Shown here: positions 3,554 to 64,000 of the stretch, in pieces | Numbering within the stretch: the stretch's first letter is position 1 | Layout of the letters: the number at the start of each line of letters is the position of its first letter | From: the human T2T-CHM13v2.0 reference genome, Homo sapiens | Direction: 5' to 3' (one strand) | DNA length: 64,000 bases | Assembly (NCBI RefSeq): GCF_009914755.1 | Contig: NC_060937.1 | Program-made: the position numbers and the translations under genes | The notes under the pieces: generated by a model | What the model was told of the DNA's origin: nothing | The model's input: only the letters and a program-made list of their open reading frames with translations | Database searches by the model: none

Positions 3554-4992
3554 TCAGTCCTGTTGTTGGATCATCTGGTTGGGGGCTTCTGGCCCAGAGA
3601 ACCATTGCACTCTGGGGCAGTGCGCCTTCCAGTGATTGCCTCGGCATAGCGGACATGGATGAGGGGGTGGCTTCTCGTTGGACAGTCTTTTTTAAAGTGT
3701 CCTTGTAAACCACACTGATAACAAGCCCTACTGGGTGATTGGCCTTTTCCATTTTCTGTCTTCTCTGAACCACCAAGGTTTGTCTGTCTGAGGGCCATGA
3801 CTAAGGCTGCTGCCTTTCTCTGATCTCGCTTTTCCTTTTGGGCCTATTCCTCTTGGTCCCTATTATAGAACACTGAGGTTGCCAGGTTTAGTAATGCCTC
3901 CAGATTTTGTTCAGGGCCCAGGGCTTGCTTTTGGAGCTTTCTCCTGATATCTGCGGCTGATTGGGTAATAAACTTATCTTTTAGGATCAATTGACCCTCT
4001 AGGGAGTCGGGTGACAGGGTAGAGTATTTTCTTAAGGCCTCCTGTAGCCAGTCGAGGAAGGCAGAAGGATTTTCTTCCTTTCCCTGAGTTATGCTAGACA
4101 TCATTGAATAATTAATGGGCTTTTTCCTAACTCTCCTTAGTCCTTCTAGAACACAGGTCAACAGATGTTTATGACTCCAGTCCCCATGATCTGAGTTGAG
4201 TCCCAGTGGGGATCCATACTGGGGACGACTTGCTGACCGGTAGGGAATTTGTCCCTTTCTTCGGCTGTCATTCTGTCATTTACTTGACTAAGATACCAGG
4301 TATCGCCAAACTCTCGGGCTGCAGCTAAAGCTGCATTCTTTTCATTAAAGACTAGGGTTTGATCTAACAATAGCATGACATCTCTCCAAGTGAGATCGAA
4401 GGTTTGCCCTAGACCCTGTAGAAAATCTATCAGGATCATCTGAAAACTTCCCCAGGTCTGCCTGGATCTGCTTTAAATCAGAGAGGGAGAAGGGGACATG
4501 TACCCAGCTTGGGCCAAATTCCTCTCCCCCTACAGCTTGAAGGGGACATAACCGATAGCCCGGGGGTTTTTGTGGTCCCTTGGAGATTTCTTTGCTTATT
4601 TCCTTCTGGGCAGGGGAGATTAGAGGAGGCTTATCATTAATAGGAAGGGGAGCTATAGGGAGGCTAGGATATGGGGGTAAGCTGAGAGGTCCTCCTGTGG
4701 GACATAAATTGCAAGCTTTGCATATTCTCCTTCAATGAAAAGAAAGCTGGACATAAGGTATTTCAATCCATTTGCCTTCCCTCTTACAGAAAAGGTCAAG
4801 CTGCAGGATAGTATTGTAATTTATACTTCCCTCAGGTGGCCATTTTTACCCATCAGAGAGAGAATACTGGGGCCAAGCCATAGTGCAGAAAAAAATAAGC
4901 TGCCTCTTTTTCAGGGTTTCTGGGTCAAATTGGTCCGAATGGCTTAGGATGCATTTCAAGGGTGAGCATGTTGATGCCTGAGTGTTTCCCAT
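3554..4992 (-). pseudogene. gag: ERV gag, disrupted
   Basis: Starts MGNTQAS at ATG 4992; capsid MHR-like QGKEENPSAFL and KDKFITQSAADIRRKLQK; zinc knuckle CYQCGLQGHFKKDC; TGA at 3556-3554. Confidence 0.9.
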
Positions 4993-5251: not shown

Positions 5252-6245
5252 TAGTTTCCCTCCTAGACCACAAGGAGGACTGAGGAAGGTTGGATTTAGT
5301 GGCCCTTACCGACGCATTCTCTTAAAACCTGCACCTTGCCTGTCCTCCTAGACCACAAAGAGGACTGAGAAAAATCAGATTTAATGACCCTTACTGACGC
5401 ATTCTTGAAAACCTGTTAAGAGTCCTAAGCGTTCTCCTGTTAGTATTGGGACTTTACTTGTGTCCTATAAAGATGTTATGCCCCCAAAATGAAGTGGAGG
5501 GCCATACCCTGAGGGAGAGAAGGGATCTCCAGGGTTGGAAGAGTGATGCCTTTTGTCCTCACTTATATGAATAGGAAGGATACAATTTCTGAGGCTCCCC
5601 ATATCCTAGCTTCAGGAATAGCTTTTGTTAGGCCTGCTTGTCTGAGTAGGGGTGCTAAAATTCCAGATAGTACCCCCTATGACAGGGCTTTGGGCAAAAA
5701 TTATGTCTTTCTGATTGGCGGGCCCGGGTGCCTAAAGAAGGGAACAGAGTCCTGAAACTAGAAAAGAACTAGAGACAGGGAGTGGTTTTTAGAAGCAGGA
5801 CTAGCCTCAGAGAAGAGAGGTGAGAGGACGTTTGTCTGACAGGCATTAGGACCCAGGAGGCAAGGGTCAGGATGGATAGGATAGATGGGCGAGTCTCACT
5901 TGGGCGACATACCTTTGAGAGTTCCGCTCATGGCCACAGGGTCAACCAGCTTGTTGTTGGGACCCCGGAGTTGAATGGCTTTCCTCTCTGTTGACCGTTG
6001 GCTCAGCCTGGAAGTACAGGATAAGTGGAAGCTGGTACCAGGCAAACCACCGCTCCCAACTCTGAAGAGTCGGGGGTTGTTAGCCCTTTCCCAGAAAGCC
6101 TGACACGCGTGTCTTTAGTCCGGTGGCTGTGCTAGTTGCTTTTAACTGGCCGACAGGTGCCTGGTATTTAGCCCCCGAATTCTACGGAAAAATAGGACAG
6201 AATAGCAAGCAAAAGGGGTCCGATGATACTCACTGCTTGGCGATA

Positions 6246-24351: not shown

Positions 24352-24573
24352 CTGGTGGGGATAGAGGCCTGGACTCTGCTGATGTCACTGGTGGGGATAG
24401 AGGCCTGGACTCTGCTGATGTCGCTGGTGGGGATAGAGGCCTGGACTCTGCTGATGTCGCTGGTGGGGATAGAGGCCTGGACTCTGCTGATGTCGCTGGT
24501 GGGGATAGAGGCCTGGACTCTGCTGATGTTGCTGGTGGGGATAGAGGCCTGGACTCTGCTGATGTCGCTGGTG
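24352..24573. repeat. 36-bp VNTR, 6 copies
   Basis: Unit CTGGTGGGGATAGAGGCCTGGACTCTGCTGATGTCG starts at 24352, 24388, 24424, 24460, 24496, 24532. Confidence 0.97.
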
Positions 24574-49181: not shown

Positions 49182-51716
49182 GTAAGTGGCACCCCCGGCT
49201 GCGCCCCGAGGTCAGGAAGGCCAGCAACCTCCTGGCAGAGGGAGTGGGCACCCCAGCTGGAGTCAGGGAGCCAGGCCTGGCTGTGTGTTTGAGGAAAAGT
49301 TAAGTGTAACTTGCATTGTTTGGTTGGGAGTAATACAGGAATTGTGTTTAGCACCCTATTTGAAAATAGTGTTTAAGACTATTTGTTGAATTAACCAACT
49401 TAACTATTTTAACAAATGTAGCTTTTTGGCAGAGGGCTCTTTCAAGTAGTTTTTGGTGCTTATGGGAAGCTTTCATTTCTACAACCAGCGCTTAGTGCTG
49501 TGACGGACAAAAGGTCATTGTATTTTATTCTTCTCATATTCGTGCTAGTGATAGTTTCTAGTGGCTGCTTTCTTATCTCACATAGGAACATTTTTCTGTT
49601 TGAAAATAAGTATATAGGTCTTCAGGTGTGCAGTGAGCAGTATTGGTAAGTTGGTATCCAATATTTGTAATTAGGAAGCTAAATCATATTTCCTATCTTT
49701 AACATTGAAAAGGACTTTTCTGATACGTCTGTGACAGATCTTATTTCATCTTATTTAGCTCAAGATCTCATTATGCTTGGCTGGCTTCCCCCGTTGTTCT
49801 GGAGGACAGGCCTGGTTTCGAGTAGCGTCTCTGGGGTGTGGTGGCTGGCATCACGGTTTACCTCTGCTCACCAGACCTTTGACATTTGTGTTCGACGGGA
49901 ATTTCGTAGAAGGAAGACATTGTGGTTGTGGGGTCAGCATTTCCCATGAAGAGCCAGCTCCCTGCAGGGCCCCTCGCTCTGGCTCTCCCACGGTCGTCTC
50001 CCTTGAATAGATCCCTTCAGGGATGAGCCTGAGTTCCTTGTCACCAGTGGAAGAGCCTCTGTTTTTTTTCGCCCAAGTAGTTTAGTAAGTGATTTAATCA
50101 GATTTGCATTTACTCAGGAATGACTGTATTCCTTTCTCAGAGTTTACAGTCAACAGTAGGCAAACAGAGTAACAACCCGGGTTGTCTTTACTAAGGCTGA
50201 AATTTAAATTTAACTTGATGACTTTTTTCTTAAATGTTTAAATTTACATTTGGATTATCAAAAATGATGGGGACAGACTGAGCATGTTTAATATCTTTAT
50301 TACTTCTGTACAATTTCTTTTGTATGAATAAGTGAGAATGTATTGTTAGCTCTGGGAGACAAATAGCACATCTTGATGCATGTACTAGATGCGCAGAAAA
50401 TACGTGTAATGTGATTTCCTGATTTAAAAAGCACTAGCTCTGTAACAGACTCGGGTGAAAAAGAATGGAGGCAGGGATTCCACTTTCTTCACTTACGTCA
50501 GGTCCTTCAGGATCCTCAGCGTGCTCCTCAGTCTCATGCCAAAGAAGACAGTGTGGTGCGGTGCAGTGGCAGGAGGACCTGGGGCCGCTGTCTGGCTCTG
50601 CTTTTCTCAGCTGTTTGAGTTGGGAGAAGTCAGCTTCTCTAAGAGGAAAAGTTTTGTGTGCAGAGCCCCTTGCTCGGTGCCAGGAGTGCGAGGAGCACCT
50701 GCAGTTCACATCCAGGTGCCTTCTCGTCCCACCCTGGGCTGGGCCTTTGCTGCAGTGATAGCTGGTGGAAAGCATTCCTACTTGGTTTCATCAGTTTTGC
50801 ACTTTATATTTATCTGTCAGTTTTTAAGACTTAAATTATTTTGGCTAAATTTGCTACACTAATACAGGGTATTGGGAAACATTTTAATTTTAAGGTTAAT
50901 TTATAATTATTCTGCTATCTTTAAATGAAGTAGTAAAGATTGTTAACATTGATAAACCTTTAGTTTTTAATAAATGTGGTAATAAGGTGTCTGAGACTGT
51001 CATATTCACTAGGGAAAGTCTGTAGTTCCCAGAAATTGATTTCAATTTTTAGATGCAATCTAAAGAGTAAACTGTTTTTTTAGTTGAGAGTAATATTACA
51101 TATGTTAAAATACATAGATTTCAAAGGCACAGTCCAGTGAGCTTTTACAATGTATATATCTGTTGTAACCGCTACCCAAATCAAAATACAGAACCTATGT
51201 ATCACCTTAGACATTTACGTCATTCTCCTTTCCTTGTTGTCCACGCCCCCATCCTACCCTTCACCTCTTCTCTGATTTCTGTCACCATAGATTAGTTTTG
51301 TCATCTCTTAAACTTAATACAAATGGGATGATGCAGGATGTCCTTTTGGGAATGGCTTCTTTTGCACCACACAGTGTCGTAGAGATTGATCTGTTTGTCC
51401 ATGCAGTTGTGATTCTTGGCGGCTTCTCCTTTTTATCTAAACAGACATGGCATCTGATGATGGAATTCATGCTAGGTATACCTGTCAGATACGGTTGGCA
51501 GTAAGATAAAGTCAGTTGTATGGCCTTAGTAATAATTCATTACATGGGTTTAACAGTCAATAATTGCAAAGAATGATGATGATACTCAACACTTTAGTAT
51601 TACATAGAAGTAACAGTGTGAATTGAACAATGGCGATGAACTGTCCAAAGTGTATAAATCTTAGTGTCAAATAGCAATTGAAATGTCAAATAACACTTAT
51701 TCATCATTTATTATAG

Positions 51717-51811
51717 GTGCTACAGAATATTTTAGAAACAGAAAATGAATATTCTAAAGAACTTCAGACTGTGCTTTCAACGTACCTACGGCCATTGCAG
51801 ACCAGTGAGAA
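51717..51811 (+). CDS. ARHGEF7: ARHGEF7 exon, start of DH domain ([32 protein letters not shown])
   Basis: ttatag acceptor, GAA|gtaagt donor; 95 nt, phase 0 to 2; DH CR1 motif ILETENEY. Confidence 0.96.
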
Positions 51812-52043
51812 GTAAGTTAGATGATAAATTGCATTAACTGTAAAATAGTCTAAACCTTAGGCTGTTCTCTTCTATTTTCAGAGAATAGAGGGTTAAATAG
51901 TGAAACAAAATTTAGTGTACCAGTTTGCCTTAGACATCAGCTGTTTATTAGGTTAAGACTTCAATAGGACATTGGGATGGCAAAGGAGAAGAATATAAAT
52001 AAAACTGTTTACATATGTTTACTGTTATTTTTCTTGGCTCTAG

Positions 52044-52139
52044 GTTAAGTTCAGCAAACATTTCATATTTAATGGGAAATCTAGAAGAAATATGTTCTTT
52101 CCAGCAAATGCTCGTACAGTCTTTAGAAGAATGCACCAA
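52044..52139 (+). CDS. ARHGEF7: ARHGEF7 exon, DH domain (LSSANISYLMGNLEEICSFQQMLVQSLEECTK)
   Basis: ggctctag acceptor, CAA|gtaagt donor; 96 nt, phase 2 to 2; DH motif MGNLEEI. Confidence 0.96.
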
Positions 52140-52578
52140 GTAAGTAAGATGCTAAAAATTTGCAACACTCAGGTTGGTATAATTGGTATTTAAAGGATTA
52201 AGTGTGAAGTAATTTTAGAATTCACATTTCTAAAGATGCAAACTTAAGTTATTTTAAATCTTTTGGGTAAATCAGCTTTTACAGTAAAAGCTGTATTTTA
52301 GACTGTCTAGTTTGTATAGCAGGAATCTTCAGAGAAAGACTCAAGAATGGTGATTTTTAAGGTGTTCCATGGAGGAAGAGTCGGGATGAAGAGCCTCTGG
52401 GAGAGAAAGGAGAATGGCCTGACACCAGGACCACTGAGGGGACAAGTGGCTCAGCTCCTTGTGTGCCCTGAGTGCTGCGCAGGGGGCCTTGAAGGCCAGG
52501 TCTTTCCCCAATATCCTGCAGCTTGCCTGCTGTTTCTGGCCTTCCAGAAGCAGATACAGTGCTTCTAGAAATAACATA

Positions 52579-53818
52579 TTAGGTTGGTGCAAAAGTAATT
52601 GTGGTTTTGGATTGTGAATTTTAAATCATAACTAGGCTCAGACACATCTTTATTAATCAAGACCATTCCAGTCAACACATTTTCACCAGTGAGAAATAAG
52701 TTTTATTCTTGTAGCGTAAAAATCTGTGCTTCAGGATTTGACAAACTCTTGGAAAGCACTTTCTGCATCCTGCTGGTTGTGGAAGCGTTTTCCCTGCAAA
52801 AAGTTGTCGAGATGCTTGAAGAAATGGTAGTTGGTTGGTGAGAGGTCAGGTGAATATGGCGGATGAGGCAAAACTTCACAGCCCAATTTGTTCCACTTTT
52901 GAAGTGTTGGTTGTGTGACGTGCGGTCAGGCGCTGTTGTGGAGAAGAATTGGGCCCTTCCTGTTGACCAATGCCGGCTGCAGGCATTGTAGTTTTCAAAG
53001 CATCTCATCGATTTGCTGAGCATACTTCTCAGATGTAATGGTTTTGTGGAGATTCAGAAAGTTGTAGTGGATCAGACTGGCACAGACCACCAGACAGTGA
53101 CCAGGACCTTTTTTTGGTGCAAGTTTGGCTTTGGGAAGTGCTTTGGAACTTCTCGGTCCAACCACTGAGCTGGTTGTCGTATAAGAACCACTTTTCGGCG
53201 TATGTCACAATCTGATTGAGAAATGGTTCATTGTTGTGTAGAATAAGAGAAGGTGACACTTCAAGATGATGATTTTTTTGATTCTCGCTCAGCTCATGAG
53301 GTACCCACTTACCGAGCTTTTTCACCTTTTCAAATTGCTTCAAATGCCGATCAACTGTAGAACAGTCAACGTTGAGTTCTTTAGCAGCTTCTCGTGTAGT
53401 TGTAAGAGGATCAGCTTCAGTGATTGCTCTCATTTGGTCGTTGTCAACTTCTGATGGCCGGCCACTACGCTCCTCACCTTCAAGGCCCTCATCTCCTCTG
53501 CAAAACTTCTTGACCCACCACTGCACTGTGTGTTTGTTAGCAGTTCCTGGGCCAAATGCGTTGTTGATGTTGGAAATTGTCTCCACTGCTTTACGACTTA
53601 CTTTGAACTCGAATAAGAAAATTGCTCAAATTTGCCTTTTGTCTAACATTTCCATAGTCTAAAATAAACAGCAAGTAATAAGTCGTTAGCAAAAAAACCA
53701 TCAAGCGAGAAATACGCATTAAAATGATGTATAACCACATTTATTTAAGAACATGTTCCAATATCAAATGGCAAATTTCAACAATGCAGAAACCACAAAT
53801 ATGTTTGCAGCAACCTGA
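52579..53818 (-). mobile_element. Hsmar1 mariner, near full length, transposase pseudogene
   Basis: TA + TTAGGTTGGTGCAAAAGTAATTGTGGTTTT TIR; degenerate opposite TIR ending 53818; ORF from ATG 53655 with NINNAFGPGTAN, RSGRP, WVPHEL; frameshifted downstream. Confidence 0.96.
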
Positions 53819-54387
53819 TGTAACATGCTATGCTGATGAACTAGGGCTTTGAGGCTTTGTCACTTTTCCAAAATTTTCCTTTGGAGGGACAGAGGCATGT
53901 TCTGAATAATCAGCCATCAGTTTTTTTCTGTGTGACTATTTTATTTTCTTGGTTTACATCAGACATTAAAGGATATTTGTTAATTTCCTGCCAGGTGACT
54001 TAGAACAGTAGTGCACATGGAAGCTTTTAGGTTTCAGTAGTCTATCAGGTGAGGTTTCTTTACTTGTGGGTTTGATGAAGGTGACACATTTTATTTTTAA
54101 ATTATCTTTGATCTTTATTCATATAACCCCCAGAAAAGACTACAGTACATTATTTCCTTGGATTTCGGTTGGTCTCTGGTCTTCCCTTCAGCTTGTGCCT
54201 ATTTAGGTTTTGAACGTGGTGAGGGAGTGGCCTTCCTTCTGTGCCACTAGTTCTTGCAGTTCATGACAGTTTACCAACCATGATGAAAATACTTTGTTCC
54301 CTTACCTTTTTGGCTGGGCTTTGAGGTTTTGTCAAGGCACTTTATACTGGACTATCGATATGGCAAGGAAAGCTGAATGCCAGAGTA

Positions 54388-54465
54388 ACAGAATATTATT
54401 AGAAACCGTAAGTGAATATTCTATAGAACTTAAGACTGTACTTTCAACCCATCTGCAGGCCATTG
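54388..54465 (+). pseudogene. Degenerate partial duplicate of the ARHGEF7 DH exon 51717-51811
   Basis: Hand alignment to 51722-51797: 66 of 78 columns identical, two 1-nt insertions; LETVSEYSIELKTVLSTHL vs [19 protein letters not shown]. Confidence 0.85.
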
Positions 54466-55000
54466 TTTTTACTTTTATAGCATTTTTGGTTTGCATAAAG
54501 TGGCATTACTTACATGACCATGAAAGAATAGCTTGGGAATCACTTTGATTTTCTTTTGGTGAATGAAGGTCATTTGCTGATAATTCAAAGTCTTTGTAAG
54601 AGTTCATATTGTGCTCAAGATGGAAGTAAATGCTTGCCTCTGTTTTTCTCATTGGCTGTAGATAATGTGGTCTAACAAATTATTACAGTATATTTTAAAA
54701 ATACAGTTTGCAGTACCTCTGTTGGGCATTATATCAGCCCTGCGAATTATTATCCTCACATTACTCGTTAAAAAGCTGAAATAAAGGCAGTAAAGTAATC
54801 GCTTGAAGCCATGTGTTTACTAAGGCTTCAGTCCTTATGTTATCTCAGAATTTGGTATGGCTTAGGTATTATTTTGATCAAGTTTCTCAAATTTTATGCT
54901 ACATGTATACGAGGTGTTAGAGTTCCACGGGGAAATGGAATGTACTAGACGAAGTTTTCTTTCTCAGCTATTTCTCTTCTTTTTATTATGAATATTCTGA

Positions 55001-55415
<415 letters not shown>

Positions 55416-55512
55416 TTCATATTCATTATTTCTTTTGATTTTTTTTTTTCGTCTCTACACAGACTTGATTCGTAGATGTCCAGGCCCTTTCACAGCTGCC
55501 TGTTGGTTAGAC

Positions 55513-55730
55513 CCAGGAGTTGGCAAACTATGGGCTGGGTCAGATTCCGCCTACCACCTGTTTTCTATAAACAAAGTTTCACTGGCACGTGCTGTACTTT
55601 TTCATTCACCCATTGTTAATGGCTGTGTTTGTACTACAGTGGCAGCAGTGGAGTTGTGATAGAAACTGTCTGGCTCACATACCTCAAATATTTACTCCTT
55701 GGCTTTTTATAGAAAGTTGGCTGACCCCCA
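55513..55730. mobile_element. MER58A-like hAT remnant
   Basis: caggagttggcaaactatgg ... tttatagaaagttggctgacccc. Confidence 0.75.
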
Positions 55731-55849
55731 GGTGAGATGTGCTTTCTTCCTTGGGGCCTCGACCTGGCCCTAACCTCTCCATTCCCTGTGCGTTCTGAGG
55801 CCCATGTTTGTTTTCTCAGTATTTTTGCCCTGTAGGACTTCTGTCTTCC

Positions 55850-57130
55850 GTCTTGAAAACTGAAGTTTCTATCTGGTGTCATTTTTCTTCAGGCAGAGGA
55901 ACACTTTCGTTTTTTGTAATTCAGGTGTGTTACTGACAAACATGATCTTGGATTTTGTTGTCTGAAAATTGCTGCCTTCGTTCCTGAAGATTTTTTTTTT
56001 TCCCATGGATACTGAACTCTGGGTAACAGATTTGTTGTTTCAGCATTTGAAGGATATTGCTTCACTGTCTTTTGGCCTTCACTGTATCTGTTGATTGTAT
56101 CTGATGATGACCTCCATTATATTCTGATCAGCACAATTTCAGATAGTTGTTCCCCGTCCGCTTCCTAGATTTTTGCCTTTATTTTAGGTTTTTGGCATTT
56201 TGACGGTGATTATCTCGGGTGTGGTTTTCTGACTTCTCGAACTTGAAAATTTATGTCTTTTACCAAATGTGGGGAATTTGCGGGCATTATTTCTTCAAAT
56301 ATTTTGCTGCTTTACTGTTTCTACTCTGCCTTGGGGCTCCAGTTACACCCATGTAGACCTTTTGCTGGAGGTCCTGGATTTGCTCGTTGCTTTCTGACCT
56401 GGTCTCTGCTCTGTTCTTCAGGTTGAATGGCGTCTGCTGTGTCCTAAGTGTTCACTGTCTGCCTCTCTACTCTCTTGTTCGTCCCCGTGCAACAAGTTTT
56501 TAGTTTGAGAATTTTTTTCAGTTCTAGAATTTGTTTCGCTTAAAAAAAGTGTTTAGTTCTCTGCTAAGATTTTATATTTGTTCATTCACTACAAGAATAT
56601 TTTTCTTTATATCCTTTAGCAATAATTAGAATAACTGCTTTAAGGTCCCATCTGCTGATTCTTTATTGTGAGGATGGGTTACGTCTTCATGATTCTTTTT
56701 ATTTCTAGTGACTTTGAATTGTGTCCTGTTTACTGTGGGTTGTAGACTCTTGATCATGTTAGGTTTCCCTGAAGAGTATTGATTTGCTTGTTTGACAGGC
56801 AGTTAACTTGGTCAGGCTCAAATTGCCAACTCTCCCTTTGGCAGATGCTCAAATCTCAGTCCACTTATTTTAGACTCAGCTGATCTGAAGTTGGCCTTGC
56901 AAGTTCTGTTCTGCCGTCAGCCAGAGATTTGGGCAGAATTTAGAGACAGAATTCAGGGTCACACTCACCGTGGGTTTCCCCCAGCTTCCCAGCAACTCTG
57001 GTAGAACCAAACCCTGTGGATTTTTGTTGGAGTTTTAGCTGTTCCACATAACAAAGTTGGCTGCCATTAGCTTAATAGTTGAGAAAGCAGGAGGTGCCCT
57101 GCCCGTTCTTTTTTCCAAATGTCCATCCTT
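55850..57130 (-). mobile_element. Old L1M fragment
   Basis: T-rich antisense L1M motifs (ttcactgtcttttggcctt, caaatgtggggaatttgcgggcattatttcttcaaata); approximate. Confidence 0.6.
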
Positions 57131-57147
57131 CCCCAGAATATACCTGA

Positions 57148-57811
57148 TGCTAACTAAAAAGTGATTCAGGCAGGTCTCAATCGATAGAGGTTTACGTAGC
57201 TGCAGTTGAGGACGTGCCAGGTAACAGGAGCATTTGTGCTTTTTCCAAAGCTTTGAGAAGTTCAGTATTTAAAGGGGAAAGAACAAGCAGGAGGGGAAAA
57301 AAGGGAGGCTGGGGAGCAGTGAGGCAGATGCTTAAACATTGTTGTGAGCCTCCGATTGGCCTCAGTAAGCCTGCATTTTACACGGGAAAGGGGGAGTAGA
57401 GGAAAGTCAGTTGTGCGTTTTTCTCAGGGTTCTCTTTCACGGGAAGGGTGATTTCTGCTCTTGTCCTTGTCTGTACCTATGAAGATAAGCTGGTACTTGA
57501 CATTGCCAGGGTGAGATACAATAGAACTCGGTTTTAGGGCTAGTTTTTAGTGGGGGACATATGTTCTGATAGATTTAGGGGCTCACAAGAAATCTCCTTG
57601 TGAGCACTTTGTGAGGAAGGCCATCTGGGGAGCTATGTGGCCTTCTGTAGTTGTGGGCACCTGGCGTATGGATGAGGCCATGACACAGGGTTGTGGAATG
57701 ACAGCTCTCTGTTCGGCAACAAAAGGCAGACAGTGTTGCACAGTTCAGTTCCCAAGCTTCACTTTCCCACTGGCATAGTGAGTTTGGGTCCCAAGATTCT
57801 GTTATCTTTCA
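57148..57811 (-). mobile_element. MER4-group ERV1 solo LTR
   Basis: ggtctcaatcgatagaggttt, ttcagtatttaaaggggaaag, ggcatagtgagtttgggtcccaagatt motifs; subfamily not resolved. Confidence 0.65.
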
Positions 57812-58409
57812 TGCTACTTTTGAGTGCCTCTAGGCAGTTACTTTCTATATGTTTTTTAAAGTTTCGATGTTATTTGCAGGCGAGTCAGTTTGATAGGAGT
57901 AATTTGGCTATAGCCAGATTTATAGAACCCATTTCCTTTTAGTTTTTCAAATCACAGTTCTTCCTTTCATCAGCTGTAGAGGGCTCCTTGCAAGCATGCT
58001 TTGTCTAGGCTTTCAGTTCAAAACAATAGAAACTGCAATCTGCCTTCCATGCCCTTGTGCCATTTGCTGCATTAGTAGCGGCACACTGTCATTTGTGTTG
58101 TGAGGTTGTGATAGCTGGAATGTGCCCAGTTTGCCTAGAGCAGCTTTCTCAGGTATGCGTGCATTCGGCGCTTGTGCACACGCTGCCACCATGTGCGTGA
58201 TGCTGGCTGGCTGCTGATAGAGCCTGTCCTGGTGGAGCTTATAGTCTGGTGAGGGAGACAGATAATTGAAAATTGTATAAATAGTTAGAAAGCTACAATT
58301 GCAGACCTTCTTACGAAAGAAATCATATCAGGCACCAAGAGCAAACTTCAGGGGAAGATCACTGAGCACTGAGGGGTAAATGGGAGGTAACCAGGCAAAA
58401 AACGAGAGG

Positions 58410-59118
58410 AGGTTTTTCCTCACACCAGCACTTCGTCAATTGTCTGACACTGAGTTTCCAGTGGTTCAGTTCTATTCGGACATTTGTCTCCCACGAGACT
58501 GCCACATTTCAAACCCAGCTGCAAATGGGGTGCCCAAGCTATATACTCCTACCTGACTGAGTACAGATTTGAGGGTTCCCATGACTCCCTTCAGGTTTGA
58601 TAATTTGCTGGAATGACCCATGTATGTAACTCAGGAGAGTGCTTGACTTCCTGGTACCAGTTTATTATGAAGGATGCAACTCAGAATGAGATGGATAGAA
58701 GAAAGATGTAGGGTAAGGGATGGGAGCGGAGTTTCTAGGCCCTCTGGGTGCAGCACCTCCGTGCTTTCAGCAACCCAAAATCTCTCCAAGCCCTGTCCTT
58801 GGTGGTTTCTAATGTAGGCTCTGTTAGGTAGACATGCATGATTGACTAGATCACTGGACATTGCTGAGTGGCATGATCTCCAGCCCCTTGTCCTCCCTTT
58901 AGGTTGCTGGTTGGGGCTGAAAGTTCCTGTGATCATGGTGGTCTTTGTGACACCTAGCCCCCATCCTGTAAGCTGTCTAGGGGCCGACCCAGAGTTACCT
59001 CGTTAGCATAGACTCGGGTATGACGGAAAGGGGTTCATGATGGGTAACAAAAGACACTTCTGTCACTCAGAAAATTCCAGGGGCTTTGGGAGCCAGGGAC
59101 AGTTTATCTGATATCACA
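58410..59118. mobile_element. MER21-type LTR
   Basis: gggttcccatgactcccttcaggtttgataatttgctggaatg, accagtttattatgaagga motifs; ends tatcaca. Confidence 0.7.
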
Positions 59119-59580
59119 GGAGAGAGAGCACCCTGAGGTGGGCATTGGCTGTGGCTGGAGCCTGTGAATGGAGAGGAGTGGAACAGTAGGAGCCCGGACG
59201 GGCAGGCGAGATCAGGTCCTGGAGACTTTGATTGGATCTTAGGTGACTGTCAAGAGTAGTTGGAAGCCGCTGATGGATTTGAAGCTTGGCAGTATCATAG
59301 TCGGCACTCTTCTGTAAAAGGAACCGTATGCTCTGTGATGAGTGGTCTGGGTGGGGCAGAGGGCAGGAGGACACAGAGACTCCAGAAAGGAGGATATTGA
59401 ATTTTGTCGAGATTCTTTTCCGTGTTAAATAAATATCCGTTACCTTAAAAGCCACTGACTTATAATCATTCAGTGGTAATTTTGTGGAGGTGTTTATAAA
59501 AGTTACTTAGCAAGTCTGTTTTTGCTTAGGCGTTGTAGTTAGTGCTTCTGGGATCCACGGCTGGTTGTAGGCAGCGTCTT

Positions 59581-59724
59581 CTCCCAGAACCACTCTGAAC
59601 CAGGAAGTAGGTCACTACTTTCACATACACTCATGCCTGCATGCATTCATTCTCCCGGAACCACTCTGAACCAGGAAGTGTGGGTCACCACCTTCACATA
59701 CACTCATGCATGCATGCATTCATT
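59581..59724. repeat. Two-copy tandem duplication, ~71-bp period
   Basis: CTCCC(A/G)GAACCACTCTGAACCAGGAAGT...CATGCATTCATT at 59581 and 59652. Confidence 0.9.
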
Positions 59725-62206
59725 CTGTTTTTGTTTTTCCCCCAGAATGACCCTATGCCTAGAATTCTTTTGTAGCTTATATGACTTTTTCCAAGCATTC
59801 CTTTATCCCCAAAAGGGATCTCTTTGTCTGTGGTTGCCACTGTAGTTGATACTTCCAAAGTGGGAGGAGTGCCCTGGGGCCTTGTCCTCCTGGGGTCCTT
59901 GTGTGGTCCTGGAAGGTGCAGCGGGTGATTTGCTTAGCACTGGGGCAGAAGCCTAGATGGCATTCCATAGAAAGCACTAGTTAAGATGGCATAAAAGAGT
60001 TAGTCTCATTATAAAATATCCAGAAGCTGTAGAATAGGACAGAGTGAAAAACCACCAATAAACTTTTTACCCAGATGTAATTATTGTTGATACTGCCTTC
60101 CACTTCTCTAAGCTTTGGTGTATGGGAGAACACATGCATAATTAGGGCCAGGATTGAGGGCCTGCCTCTAGTTAAGATAAGATAGTGAGTGCTCTCTCAG
60201 GAGAGCCTGCCTGTTGCATTTGGGCAGTGAGGTAACCTGATTTGACCTCAGTATGGGGCAGGTGTGAATAGCACAGGCAGAGGCTTCTCCTTCCTAGATG
60301 TCCAGTACAGAAGACATTACATGTTTTGCTGCAAATTAAATGATTGCAGATGTGAAAAGAAGTTATCCCAGAAGAGAGCTGTAGAAGAATTCTAACCACT
60401 TTAATGTCATTAGGAGAGTTTTTCAAATACTTTAACGGCAGCTCATGTCTGTCTGATGGCTGCCTTACTATAAATATGTACAGTGAACTTCCATGTATAG
60501 ACCTACTATTTATTGAATTCTTAGTGTGTTCCTGGTATTTTTTCAGTTATTAACTCATTTTATCCTTTAAAGGACCCCATGAGGCAGGTGTTTAAAGATA
60601 AGAAAGCTAGGACACCAAGAGGGTGAGGGATGTGCCCAAGGTTACACAACTGGTAACTGGGGCCTCAGATTTGGAGACAGGTTGTCTTCATTCGAGGTAT
60701 GTATGTGAAAGGTTGATTCTGAGAGTCCCTGATTCATAGTTCCACCTCTTTCAGTTGGCAGTGCTTTTCGCAGGCCTGGCAGCTTCTCACCCCACCCTCT
60801 GCTGCCCTAAGGCAGCCCCAGTGAGAGCCCCCAGCCAGTTAGGTTCCTCTCCCAGGGCCAGGCCCAGCAGCAGCTGGAGCCCAGGCCCCCTTCTCCTGTT
60901 GGGGGCAGGGCCCCTGCCTCACTTTGGGAGAAGAAAGCCTTAGTGGGGAGAAATAAGATAGTGAGTGCTCTCTCAGGATAGCATTTGAAATGCAGTTTTC
61001 CTTCAAACTATTGTTCTATGTGTCGGAGAATTCCCTGTACTACATGATTTACTGTAGACCCTGTTACAGTATGATTTAGAGAGTCTTTGGACTAGTCTGG
61101 GAATGTGGAACAGTGGTTTGTAAAAAATTGCCTCTATGGGAAAATGAATTCTTGGAATCTAATAGTATCTTTTAAACGAGTTTTTAAAATAAAACTGATA
61201 AGTTGGGAATTTGCTTCTAGTTTATGATAGAAAGGAGGTTAAATTCTGTTGAAAATAGAACCTCAGAAGCCCTCTTATGGAACATCCTTGTTGTACCAAA
61301 TTTTATTCTTACTTATTTTGATGGTGACTCAGTGGTGTTGTAATACTTCCCCTAAAGAAATACTAAAATACCCAGTAACTCTCCGTCTCTTTGTTTAGAT
61401 GCCAGCGCATGGGCTGGCAAACAGTGGAGATAGCAGGATTTGCCCTGTTCCCGTCTCAGATGTACAGCTCTTGAAATAGTGAGGGTGCCTGGATCACTGT
61501 ACCCCAGAGTCTCCACCAAGCCTGGGACTACCACACTAAGCTTGTTGTGTGTAACTGTTGCTTGGGGCAGCTGCGACCATTTCACCATTCCTGCTTGAGT
61601 GTTCTGGGTGCTTTCCCCACCCCGGGTCCCCAGCCTCCCCCGATCCCTATACTTTGTGCTGCTTTGGCGATGTTCAGGGCCACCCGATGACCTCTCGCAA
61701 CCCAGTTATCACAGTTCAAATGTCTCAGAGCATTTTGGCTCTGCTGCATGCCACCATGTGATACATGGGACGCCTTTTCCTCATGGAGTTTCACATAGGT
61801 TTCTGATGGTTCTGCCGTGTTCTCTGGCTACCTGGGAGATCACAGGATGCCACGCCTGTGGAGGACTGTGAGGGAAGCCTACCCTTCTTGTAGCTCAAGT
61901 TGAACCATTGTGGTGCTGGTTCATGGGTGCTATTAGTTTAGAGGGCAAGGTGGTGGTGAATTCCATCTCCAGTCCTTTACTCAGATTGTTCTAATATGTT
62001 GTACATTTTCTGTAAGATGATAGTGAAAACAGTACATCAAGAGAAAAATTTTCTTCTCTAGAGACTCATTCTCAGCATATTTGTTGTTTGAACTGTTTTT
62101 AAATAAATCGGTTAACTGCAATGTTTGTAATTTTCAGTTTCTATTCTGGTGACAGTTTTTTTAAAAATGTGATTTTGAGTCAAGTTGTTTGAGAGGATAT
62201 GGGTGC

Positions 62207-62818
62207 CACTAACATGAAGGCCGGGCTCAGAAGAGGATTCGGGCTAAGGCACTGAGTCGCTAACATGAAGGCCGGCCTCAGAAGAGGATTCGGGCTAAGG
62301 CGCTGAGTCACTAACATGAAGGCCGGGCTCAGAAGAGGATTCGGGCTAAGGCGCTGAGTCACTAACGTGAAGGCTGGCCTCAGAAGAGGATTCGGGCTAA
62401 GGCGCTGAGTCGCTAACGTGAAGGCCGGGCCCAGAAGAGGATTCGGGCTAAGGCGCTGAGTCGCTAACGTGAAGGCCGGGCCCAGAAGAGGATTCGGGCT
62501 AAGGCGCTGAGTCGCTAACGTGAAGGCCGGGCCCAGAAGAGGATTCGGGCTAAGGCGCTGAGTCGCTAACGTGAAGGCCGGGCCCAGAAGAGGATTCGGG
62601 CTAAGGCGCTGAGTCGCTAACGTGAAGGCCGGGCCCAGAAGAGGATTCGGGCTAAGGCGCTGAGTCGCTAACGTGAAGGCCGGGCCCAGAAGAGGATTCG
62701 GGCTAAGGCGCTGAGTCGCTAACGTGAAGGCCGGGCCCAGAAGAGGATTCGGGCTAAGGCGCTGAGTCGCTAACGTGAAGGCCGGGCTCAGAAGAGGATT
62801 CGGGCTAAGGCGCTGAGT
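62207..62818. repeat. 51-bp CpG-rich VNTR, 12 copies
   Basis: Unit CGCTAACGTGAAGGCCGGGCCCAGAAGAGGATTCGGGCTAAGGCGCTGAGT; 612 bp = 12 x 51. Confidence 0.97.
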
Positions 62819-64000
62819 TCCGTTTGGGGTTGCTGTGCATTTCAGTTGGAGATGTCACAGGGGAGGGTGGAAGCGGATACTGGGAGCTGCAGACTTCCCA
62901 CCCGGCCTACTGCATGTGTGGGAAGAGGTGTGGCCCAGGTAAAGGTTAGGTTTGGATTGACAGCTCTCCTGGTCACCTGCCTCATGTTGCTTGCCCATGT
63001 CTGTCCCAGTGTCCTCATCTATAAAGCAGGGGTGCTGGTGTCACCCACCCAGAGTCTTGCGGAGGTAAAGTGGCCTGGTACTTACGGAACCATCTGCAAA
63101 TGCTCGGGGCCCTACTTGGCGTCTGGAGCTGAGTTCTCCTGCAGCCTCTGTTCTGCCAGGGCCCTCCCTGTGCACCATTTATAACTTCAGTTGTGAAAAT
63201 GTAACTTCGCACTGGCTTTGGAGGGCCCTGAGTGAGCTGGCTGGTGTTCGTGAAAGAAGATCTGTTTTCAGTCACATTGGTGAGGGACTTTTTTCCTCAC
63301 CCTTCCCATTTCTGCAGCTTTGTCTTCACTTGATTTCACTTTCTGCCCTTAAACTCGGGGACATTTTATGACTGTCTTTAACTGGGGGATATTTTTCCTG
63401 TGGAAGGTGGGGTCATGGTGCTTTCTTTTCAGTGCTGCGTTTCTCTTGGCTCTGTCGTTTGGGGATGTCTGACAGGCAGTTGACTAGCCATGGAATCAGG
63501 TTGGAAGTAGAGAATGATTTAATGAACTTCATGAATGGTGTAATGAATTGGTATGATATTTCATTCGTTGTCTGGATCTTTTTAATGTCGATATTTTAAT
63601 TATTTTTTTCCTAAAATAGCTGGAGGCAACTTATTTTTAACCGCCAGCTAGTTAAGCCATCATTGCCTGTATTTGGAATGGTAGAAAACAACCAAATGTG
63701 TCTTTAGTCTTATTCTTATCCTACACTAATCAGTTCCTTGATTAGTAGGCTGTAGCTATGGAGGAGGCGGTAGCTACGGCATAAACCAAAGAAGGCAGGA
63801 AGGTTTCACTTGGAAGGCGATGGAGAAATAGACCAAACGTTCAGGAAAGAAACATTTTGGATGATTAAGGAAGCTTTATAAATGGCATGTAGGGAGGCAC
63901 AGTGATTGGAACTGCGGGCGCTTTGATGTTTTTAGCCACCATGCCTTCTTTCATAGAGGGTTACCTATGGCATGTTCTCCCTGCCCACACTCAGGTTCTG

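What the first reader, a model, noticed from the sequence alone, without database searches (positions are those of the whole stretch)
54388..54465. Ghost copy of the first DH exon in the downstream intron, carrying a new 5' splice site
Seen: ACAGAATATTATTAGAAACCGTAAGTGAATATTCTATAGAACTTAAGACTGTACTTTCAACCCATCTGCAGGCCATTG aligns to exon 51722-51797 at about 85% by hand, in the same orientation 2.7 kb downstream and beyond the Hsmar1. Similarity is confined to exonic sequence and the flanks do not match. Substitutions have created ACC|GTAAGT at 54408. Inference: an old local templated insertion (possibly RNA/cDNA-templated repair) or a relic of exon duplication that may act as a cryptic or decoy donor.
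Basis: partly seen in the sequence, partly recalled or inferred. Interest (0 to 1): 0.7.

Follow-up and report, generated by a model that had tools for sequence, protein, structure and literature searches.

The report
Old repair copy of ARHGEF7 exon
A 76-base piece from inside one ARHGEF7 exon sits again 2.6 kb downstream in an intron, likely pasted there during DNA break repair tens of millions of years ago and likely inert; such local copies are a known, ordinary class.

Summary
54388-54465 matches exon bases 51722-51797 at 66 of 78 columns (10 substitutions, two 1-base insertions), same strand, blastn E 2e-15; flanks share nothing. It derives from ARHGEF7, not ARHGEF6, and is the derived copy. 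Best reading: a repair-mediated proximal duplication (Pace et al. 2009), roughly 50 My old (15-117), drifting neutrally. Two cases from that paper's table, re-fetched here (ITGAL, SERPINA3), have the same anatomy: an exon-internal 80-99 base piece copied 0.9-1.8 kb downstream into an intron. So confinement to exon sequence is an established feature of this class and does not by itself point to an RNA template. A decayed whole-exon duplication is disfavoured by simulation. The new ACC|GTAAGT is real but weak: 6/11 U1 match (real donors 7-9), one of 16 unannotated GTAAGT in the window, absent from RefSeq models, and any exon ending there has a stop or frameshift. Breakpoint hallmarks, orthologue dating and junction reads could not be tested. 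New member of a known kind; low interest.

The parts
54388..54465 (+). Acceptor copy ('ghost'): 78 bases, 10 substitutions and two 1-base insertions against the exon
51722..51797 (+). Donor segment, bases 6-81 of the 95-base first DH exon (51717-51811); neither splice site is included
   Evidence: RefSeq table in the task
54405..54415 (+). Donor-like ACC|GTAAGTGA made by substitutions; 6 of 11 match to the U1-complementary consensus; unannotated
52579..53817 (-). Decayed Hsmar1-type mariner between donor and copy; local clock (branch 0.06-0.08)
54316..54334 (+). 19-base stretch matching 53844-53862 at 18 of 19, 53 bases before the ghost; possibly a second piece of the same repair event, possibly chance
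54267..54548 (+). 93-codon stop-free frame running through the ghost in the DH frame (ATG at 54360, 62 aa); no database match, common length
54463..54480 (+). Pyrimidine-rich stretch ending in AG just after the ghost; with GT 54408 it would bound a 73-base nested intron

Best explanation
A 76-base internal piece of the first DH exon is present again in the intron 2.6 kb downstream, likely pasted in when a germline double-strand break was repaired by copying nearby DNA, and it has likely drifted without function since. Shown: the copy, its sharp ends inside the exon, its ARHGEF7 origin, its derived state, no tail or target-site duplication. Inferred: a broken end invaded the nearby sequence (sister, homologue or loop), synthesised about 76 bases and rejoined (SDSA-like or end-joining with templated insertion), about 50 My ago (15-117). 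Inferred: the GTAAGT is a by-product of drift and is rarely or never used.
For: Size and spacing fit the class of Pace et al. 2009 (PMC2671141): 824 human cases of 50-619 bases within 5 kb, 753 within 3 kb, none of 39 inspected with a polyA/T tail. Its Table S1 lists 2 donors as 'Exon' with intron acceptors; both were fetched: ITGAL, 80 bases, 96%, direct, exon-internal, inserted in an Alu about 1.75 kb downstream; SERPINA3, 99 bases, 98%, inverted, exon-internal. 2 of 824 is close to the 0.4% expected here for a random DNA template within 5 kb. Ghost is 47/57 identical to ARHGEF7, 36/57 to ARHGEF6. The exon peptide is identical in 90 of 92 parsable proteins (mostly primate isoforms, not independent); the horse and bird variants keep the exon residue at every site the ghost changes. 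Differences: 5 of 50 at codon positions 1-2, 5 of 26 at position 3, as expected for a neutral copy of a constrained exon. Two other non-tandem direct duplicates from intron DNA lie in this gene.
Against: The defining breakpoint marks (microhomology, filler, deletion against an empty site) could not be read: no orthologous DNA, and no repeat found around the site. The position-3 excess is not significant (Fisher p 0.30) and the age interval is wide. Ten random substitutions create GTAAGT in only 0.2% of simulations (1.2% for a broader donor class), a post hoc but real oddity. A T5 run follows the 3' end, though at the wrong end for a retro tail on either strand. The genome-wide DNA search is insensitive here: it missed the 85% partner itself. 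DNA versus RNA template cannot be told from one junction-free copy.
Confidence: 0.75

Rival explanations
1. The piece was copied in cis from the gene's own spliced RNA or cDNA during break repair.
For: Both ends lie in the exon; sense orientation; a DNA template within 5 kb gives this only 0.4% of the time. Spliced-mRNA-templated repair exists in human cells (PMC12065846, passages).
Against: No exon-exon junction, tail or TSD. Given overlap with this exon, staying inside it is equally likely (about 12%, arithmetic) for DNA and spliced RNA. The described signature of that pathway is whole-intron deletion, not an ectopic mid-exon patch. Exon donors are only 2 of 824 in the proximal class. The SERPINA3 analogue is inverted.
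Confidence: 0.08
2. Remnant of a larger tandem duplication of the exon (once a candidate mutually exclusive exon) that was later trimmed on both sides.
For: Same orientation, nearby intron; central 57 bases are stop-free in the DH frame. Flanks decay twice as fast as the exon match.
Against: No anchored flank similarity. If 40-base flanks had been co-copied, they stay visible in 93-100% of 500 simulations at divergence 0.08-0.15 (67-72% at 0.20); both ends fall inside the exon in 0 of 1000 at 0.10 and 0.15, 3 of 1000 at 0.20 (small indels only). A stop-free core is expected in 62% of simulations. The intervening exon 52044-52139 is not copied.
Confidence: 0.07
3. Whatever its origin, the copy now works as a cryptic poison-exon donor or decoy that tunes ARHGEF7 splicing.
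For: Perfect +1 to +6 GTAAGT, unlikely from drift alone (0.2-1.2%); embedded in former exon sequence; pyrimidine-rich AGs lie 80-270 bases upstream; inclusion would always be NMD-type.
Against: 6/11 U1 match versus 7-9 for the six real donors; 131 of 765 GTs in 52140-64000 match as well or better; 16 of 21 plus-strand GTAAGT in the window are unannotated. Not among exons of the 59 RefSeq transcripts (task table). 0 of 120 proteins carry any of 7 ghost-frame words. No paper found with ARHGEF7 plus cryptic exon plus splicing.
Confidence: 0.05
4. The break was an Hsmar1 excision site: the element hopped locally and the gap was patched with the exon piece.
For: TA sits at the 5' junction (54386-54387); ages overlap (ghost 0.11, CI 0.03-0.26; element 0.06-0.08); this element belongs to a chr13q34 clade that suggests local hopping.
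Against: TA is common; no second TA or footprint at the 3' junction; order of events unresolved.
Confidence: 0.04
5. Fragment of a retrocopy inserted in trans, or derived from the paralogue ARHGEF6.
For: Exon-only content.
Against: Closer to ARHGEF7; landing within 3 kb of its source by chance is about 1e-6 (arithmetic); no tail or TSD of 7 bases or more; protein search of the genome returned only the exon, ARHGEF6 and the ghost.
Confidence: 0.01

Closest known systems
Repair-mediated duplications (RDs), Pace, Sen, Batzer and Feschotte 2009, PMC2671141
   Same: Single non-tandem copy of 50-600 bases within 5 kb of its donor, no tail, unrelated flanks, neutral-looking divergence; exon-donor cases in ITGAL and SERPINA3 have the same anatomy.
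   Different: Not inside a recognised transposon, so outside their screen; 'ARHGEF7' occurs 0 times in the 4 supplementary files; older than their two exon cases; breakpoint marks unreadable.
Doublets (short paired duplications), Thomas et al. 2004
   Same: Short local paired copies, proposed to come from break repair (as summarised in PMC2671141).
   Different: Those surveys used identical or near-identical pairs; this one is 85%. The paper itself was not held.
Tandem exon duplications / mutually exclusive exons (e.g. Ivanov and Pervouchine 2022, PMC9013439)
   Same: Exon-like sequence in a nearby intron of the same gene.
   Different: No acceptor, no native donor, ends inside the exon, two frameshifting insertions, no protein evidence.
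RNA-templated break repair (RT-DSBR), PMC12065846
   Same: Exon-only sequence at a site in the same gene.
   Different: Its described scar is precise intron loss; no junction here.

Membership tests
Repair-mediated proximal duplication (Pace 2009) | Copy of at least 50 bases | tested here: met
   76-78 bases
Repair-mediated proximal duplication (Pace 2009) | Donor more than 50 bases and less than 5 kb away | tested here: met
   2,590 bases between copies; about 1,350 without the mariner
Repair-mediated proximal duplication (Pace 2009) | Only one other copy in the genome | tested here: met
   Protein search: exon, ghost, ARHGEF6 only; 194 kb of the gene self-compared. DNA searches were too insensitive to add much.
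Repair-mediated proximal duplication (Pace 2009) | No retrotransposition tail | tested here: met
   No A-run 3' or T-run 5'; a T5 run at the 3' end is on the wrong side for a tail; no TSD of 7 or more within 60 bases
Repair-mediated proximal duplication (Pace 2009) | Microhomology, filler or deletion at breakpoints against an empty site | not testable with these tools
   No orthologous mammal DNA; flanks matched nothing else in the genome
Repair-mediated proximal duplication (Pace 2009) | Neutral divergence of the copy | tested here: inconclusive
   5/50 versus 5/26, two frameshifts; compatible, p 0.30
Tandem duplicated (mutually exclusive) exon | Whole exon with both splice sites | tested here: not met
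   Bases 6-81 of 95 only
Tandem duplicated (mutually exclusive) exon | Frame-preserving inclusion | tested here: not met
   17 of 17 candidate exons ending at 54407 have a stop (13) or shift the frame (4)
Tandem duplicated (mutually exclusive) exon | Junction reads | not testable with these tools
   No RNA-seq; absent from RefSeq models in the task table
Processed retrocopy | Spliced junction, polyA tail, target-site duplication | tested here: not met
RNA-templated repair (RT-DSBR) | Precise loss of an intron or a spliced junction in DNA | tested here: not met
   Introns on both sides of the exon are intact; copy has no junction

The most novel reading that the evidence does not exclude
A break-repair patch copied from the gene's own exon, possibly from its RNA, later gained a splice donor and now defines a low-level poison exon or decoy that tunes beta-PIX levels in primates: new splicing regulation born from a repair scar.
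Probability: 0.04. Interest if true: 0.55.

Novelty: new member of a known kind. Interest (0 to 1): 0.12.

Why it matters
As it stands, little: one more fossil of imperfect break repair, outside the transposon-based screen that defined the class. Its use is as a test case. Exon-derived copies can be polarised and dated from codon positions without outgroups, and a genome-wide set of them would show whether RNA ever templates local germline insertions (spliced junctions) and how often such patches supply new splice sites. It would matter more if reads showed the donor in use.

Tried and rejected
Flank homology: by-eye matches near register on both sides, and a possible micro-inversion of the exon's 3' end, were considered; anchored extension scored 0 and an ungapped scan of 54188-54665 against 10 kb on both strands found only the core and the 19-mer above score 12. 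Clustering of differences (error-prone synthesis): not significant, p 0.32 and 0.24. Microprotein from the 93-codon frame: 147 such frames and 135 ATG ORFs of 62 aa or more in 194 kb of plus strand; no protein of 110-2000 aa matched at E 1 (weak evidence; short proteins not searched); Pfam only sub-threshold CHASE6_C. Exon 3' end (51801-51818) matching 52685-52702 at 17/18: mostly native mariner sequence, chance-level score. A fixed 14-base distance to the donor (ghost and ITGAL both 14): SERPINA3 gives 41, so no pattern. Rfam on 51500-55500: only Alu-derived hits. A retrocopy as outgroup for dating: none found. MaxEnt/SpliceAI scores were not available; a plain U1-match count was used.

Full report
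Observation. The stretch 54388-54465 aligns to 51722-51797 at 66 of 78 columns, with 10 substitutions and two single-base insertions, on the same strand (blastn E 2.2e-15). The score of 88 compares with a maximum of 29 in 300 shuffles, and none of the other 7 exons tested has a copy in the window. The donor is bases 6-81 of the 95-base first DH exon. Anchored extension into either flank scores 0.

Source and direction. Over the ungapped 57-base core the copy is 47/57 identical to ARHGEF7 and 36/57 to ARHGEF6. A protein search of the genome returned three places: the exon, ARHGEF6 and the copy. DNA searches returned no further copy but also missed the 85% partner, so they say little. Of 120 proteins returned for a neighbouring exon, 92 could be parsed at this segment; 90 are identical to the human exon peptide, and the horse and bird variants keep the exon residue at all sites the copy changes (the set is mostly primate isoforms; 28 rows were other SH3 proteins, partial or unparsable). 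The intron piece is therefore the derived copy.

Age. Differences fall at 5 of 50 first and second codon positions and 5 of 26 third positions. Reading the first set as change in the copy alone gives 0.107 per site (95% interval 0.034-0.258), about 49 My (15-117) at the 2.2e-9 rate used in PMC2671141. The doubled third-position rate is what a neutral copy of a constrained exon predicts, but it is not significant (p 0.30). The mariner between the two has a branch of 0.080 (0.061 without CpG columns), like 17 other copies (0.084; 0.060), so the local clock is ordinary. Which came first is unresolved; without the element the spacing would be about 1.35 kb.

Mechanism. There is no spliced junction, no tail and no target-site duplication of 7 bases or more. 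A decayed whole-exon duplication should still show flanks: in simulations they remain visible in 93-100% of runs at divergence up to 0.15, and both ends retreat inside the exon in 0 of 1000 (3 of 1000 at 0.20); large later deletions were not modelled. Pace et al. 2009 (PMC2671141; parts 1-5 of 8 read, plus passages and table rows) define repair-mediated duplications: 824 human copies within 5 kb of the donor, mean 162 bases, with microhomology, filler or deletion and no tail in 39 of 39 inspected. ARHGEF7 is not named in their supplements; their screen saw only insertions inside transposons. Their table marks 2 donors as 'Exon'. I fetched both. In ITGAL an 80-base exon-internal piece sits in direct orientation inside an Alu about 1.75 kb downstream, 96% identical, with short overlaps to the Alu at both ends (L041:3686-3765 and 5520-5599). 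In SERPINA3 a 99-base exon-internal piece sits inverted 0.87 kb downstream, 98% identical (L042:3316-3414 and 4288-4386). These are young versions of the same anatomy. Their template was not proven to be DNA either, but 2 of 824 matches the 0.4% expected by chance here, so no RNA bias is needed. The gene holds two more non-tandem direct duplicates of intron sequence. A 19-base pair next to the ghost (53844/54316) beat 40 of 40 local shuffles, but equal scores arose in 3 of 8 whole-window shuffles; it may be a second donor, as in the paper's 20 chimeric cases, or chance.

The splice site. Two substitutions made GTAAGT at 54408. Against: the site matches 6 of 11 positions of the U1-complementary consensus (recalled) while the six real donors match 7-9; 131 of 765 GTs in 52140-64000 do as well; 16 of 21 plus-strand GTAAGT in the window are unannotated, 50 occur in 194 kb. 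All 17 candidate exons from an AG in 54100-54395 to 54407 carry a stop (13) or shift the frame (4). No RefSeq transcript in the task table uses it; 0 of 120 proteins contain any of 7 words from the ghost frame, and 91 of 92 continue across the canonical junction, the other ending at it. A pyrimidine-rich AG 73 bases downstream could bound a nested intron; 3 of 16 unannotated GTAAGT have one as good. RNA data were not available, so low-level use is not excluded.

Literature. Searches: ARHGEF7 with pseudogene and exon (12 listed, none on this by title or abstract start); ARHGEF7 with cryptic exon and splicing (0); class-level searches (listings only). PMC9013439: part 1 of 4 read; its online tables were not seen and may list the site. 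PMC12065846: passages. Thomas et al. 2004: not held, known only through PMC2671141.

Verdict. Real, likely a repair-mediated proximal duplication (0.75), likely inert. New member of a known kind. Interest 0.12; a functional poison or decoy donor is not excluded (about 0.04-0.05).

Noticed in passing
window 52579-53817; L010 (chr13:109.83 Mb); L020 (chr13:111.96 Mb): This mariner copy groups with two other copies within 2.1 Mb on chr13q34 (support 99/96; 8-11% apart versus about 16% to others), suggesting local hopping or local conversion. The 19 comparison copies were the best matches to this one, of 43 matches listed.
   Followed up: partly
window 60177-60206 and 60953-60982: 30-base intronic doublet, 29 of 30 identical, direct, unrelated flanks; likely a younger event of the same class.
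   Followed up: partly
L029:3180-3220 and 4857-4901: About 45-base direct duplicate, 84%, 1.6 kb apart, in the 5' part of the gene.
   Followed up: partly
window 53844-53862 and 54316-54334: 18 of 19 match, one copy 25 bases from the mariner end, the other 53 bases before the ghost; borderline significance.
   Followed up: partly
window 54360-54548: 62-aa ATG frame in good Kozak-like context that includes the ghost in DH frame and ends in a hydrophobic stretch; no database support.
   Followed up: yes
window 62207-62818; 24352-24573; 59579-59726: Tandem arrays: about 12 copies of a 51-base unit at 94-98%; about 3 copies of 72 bases; 2 copies of about 71 bases.
   Followed up: no
P0022; window 52140: A 160-aa database protein ends exactly at the end of exon 52044-52139 plus one residue, as read-through into the intron would give.
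   Followed up: no
L041:3686-3765; L042:3316-3414: The two donors marked 'Exon' in Table S1 of PMC2671141 (ITGAL, SERPINA3) are exon-internal fragments, not whole exons; the main text names other genes for complete exons. The SERPINA3 copy keeps an open frame on the minus strand.
   Followed up: partly
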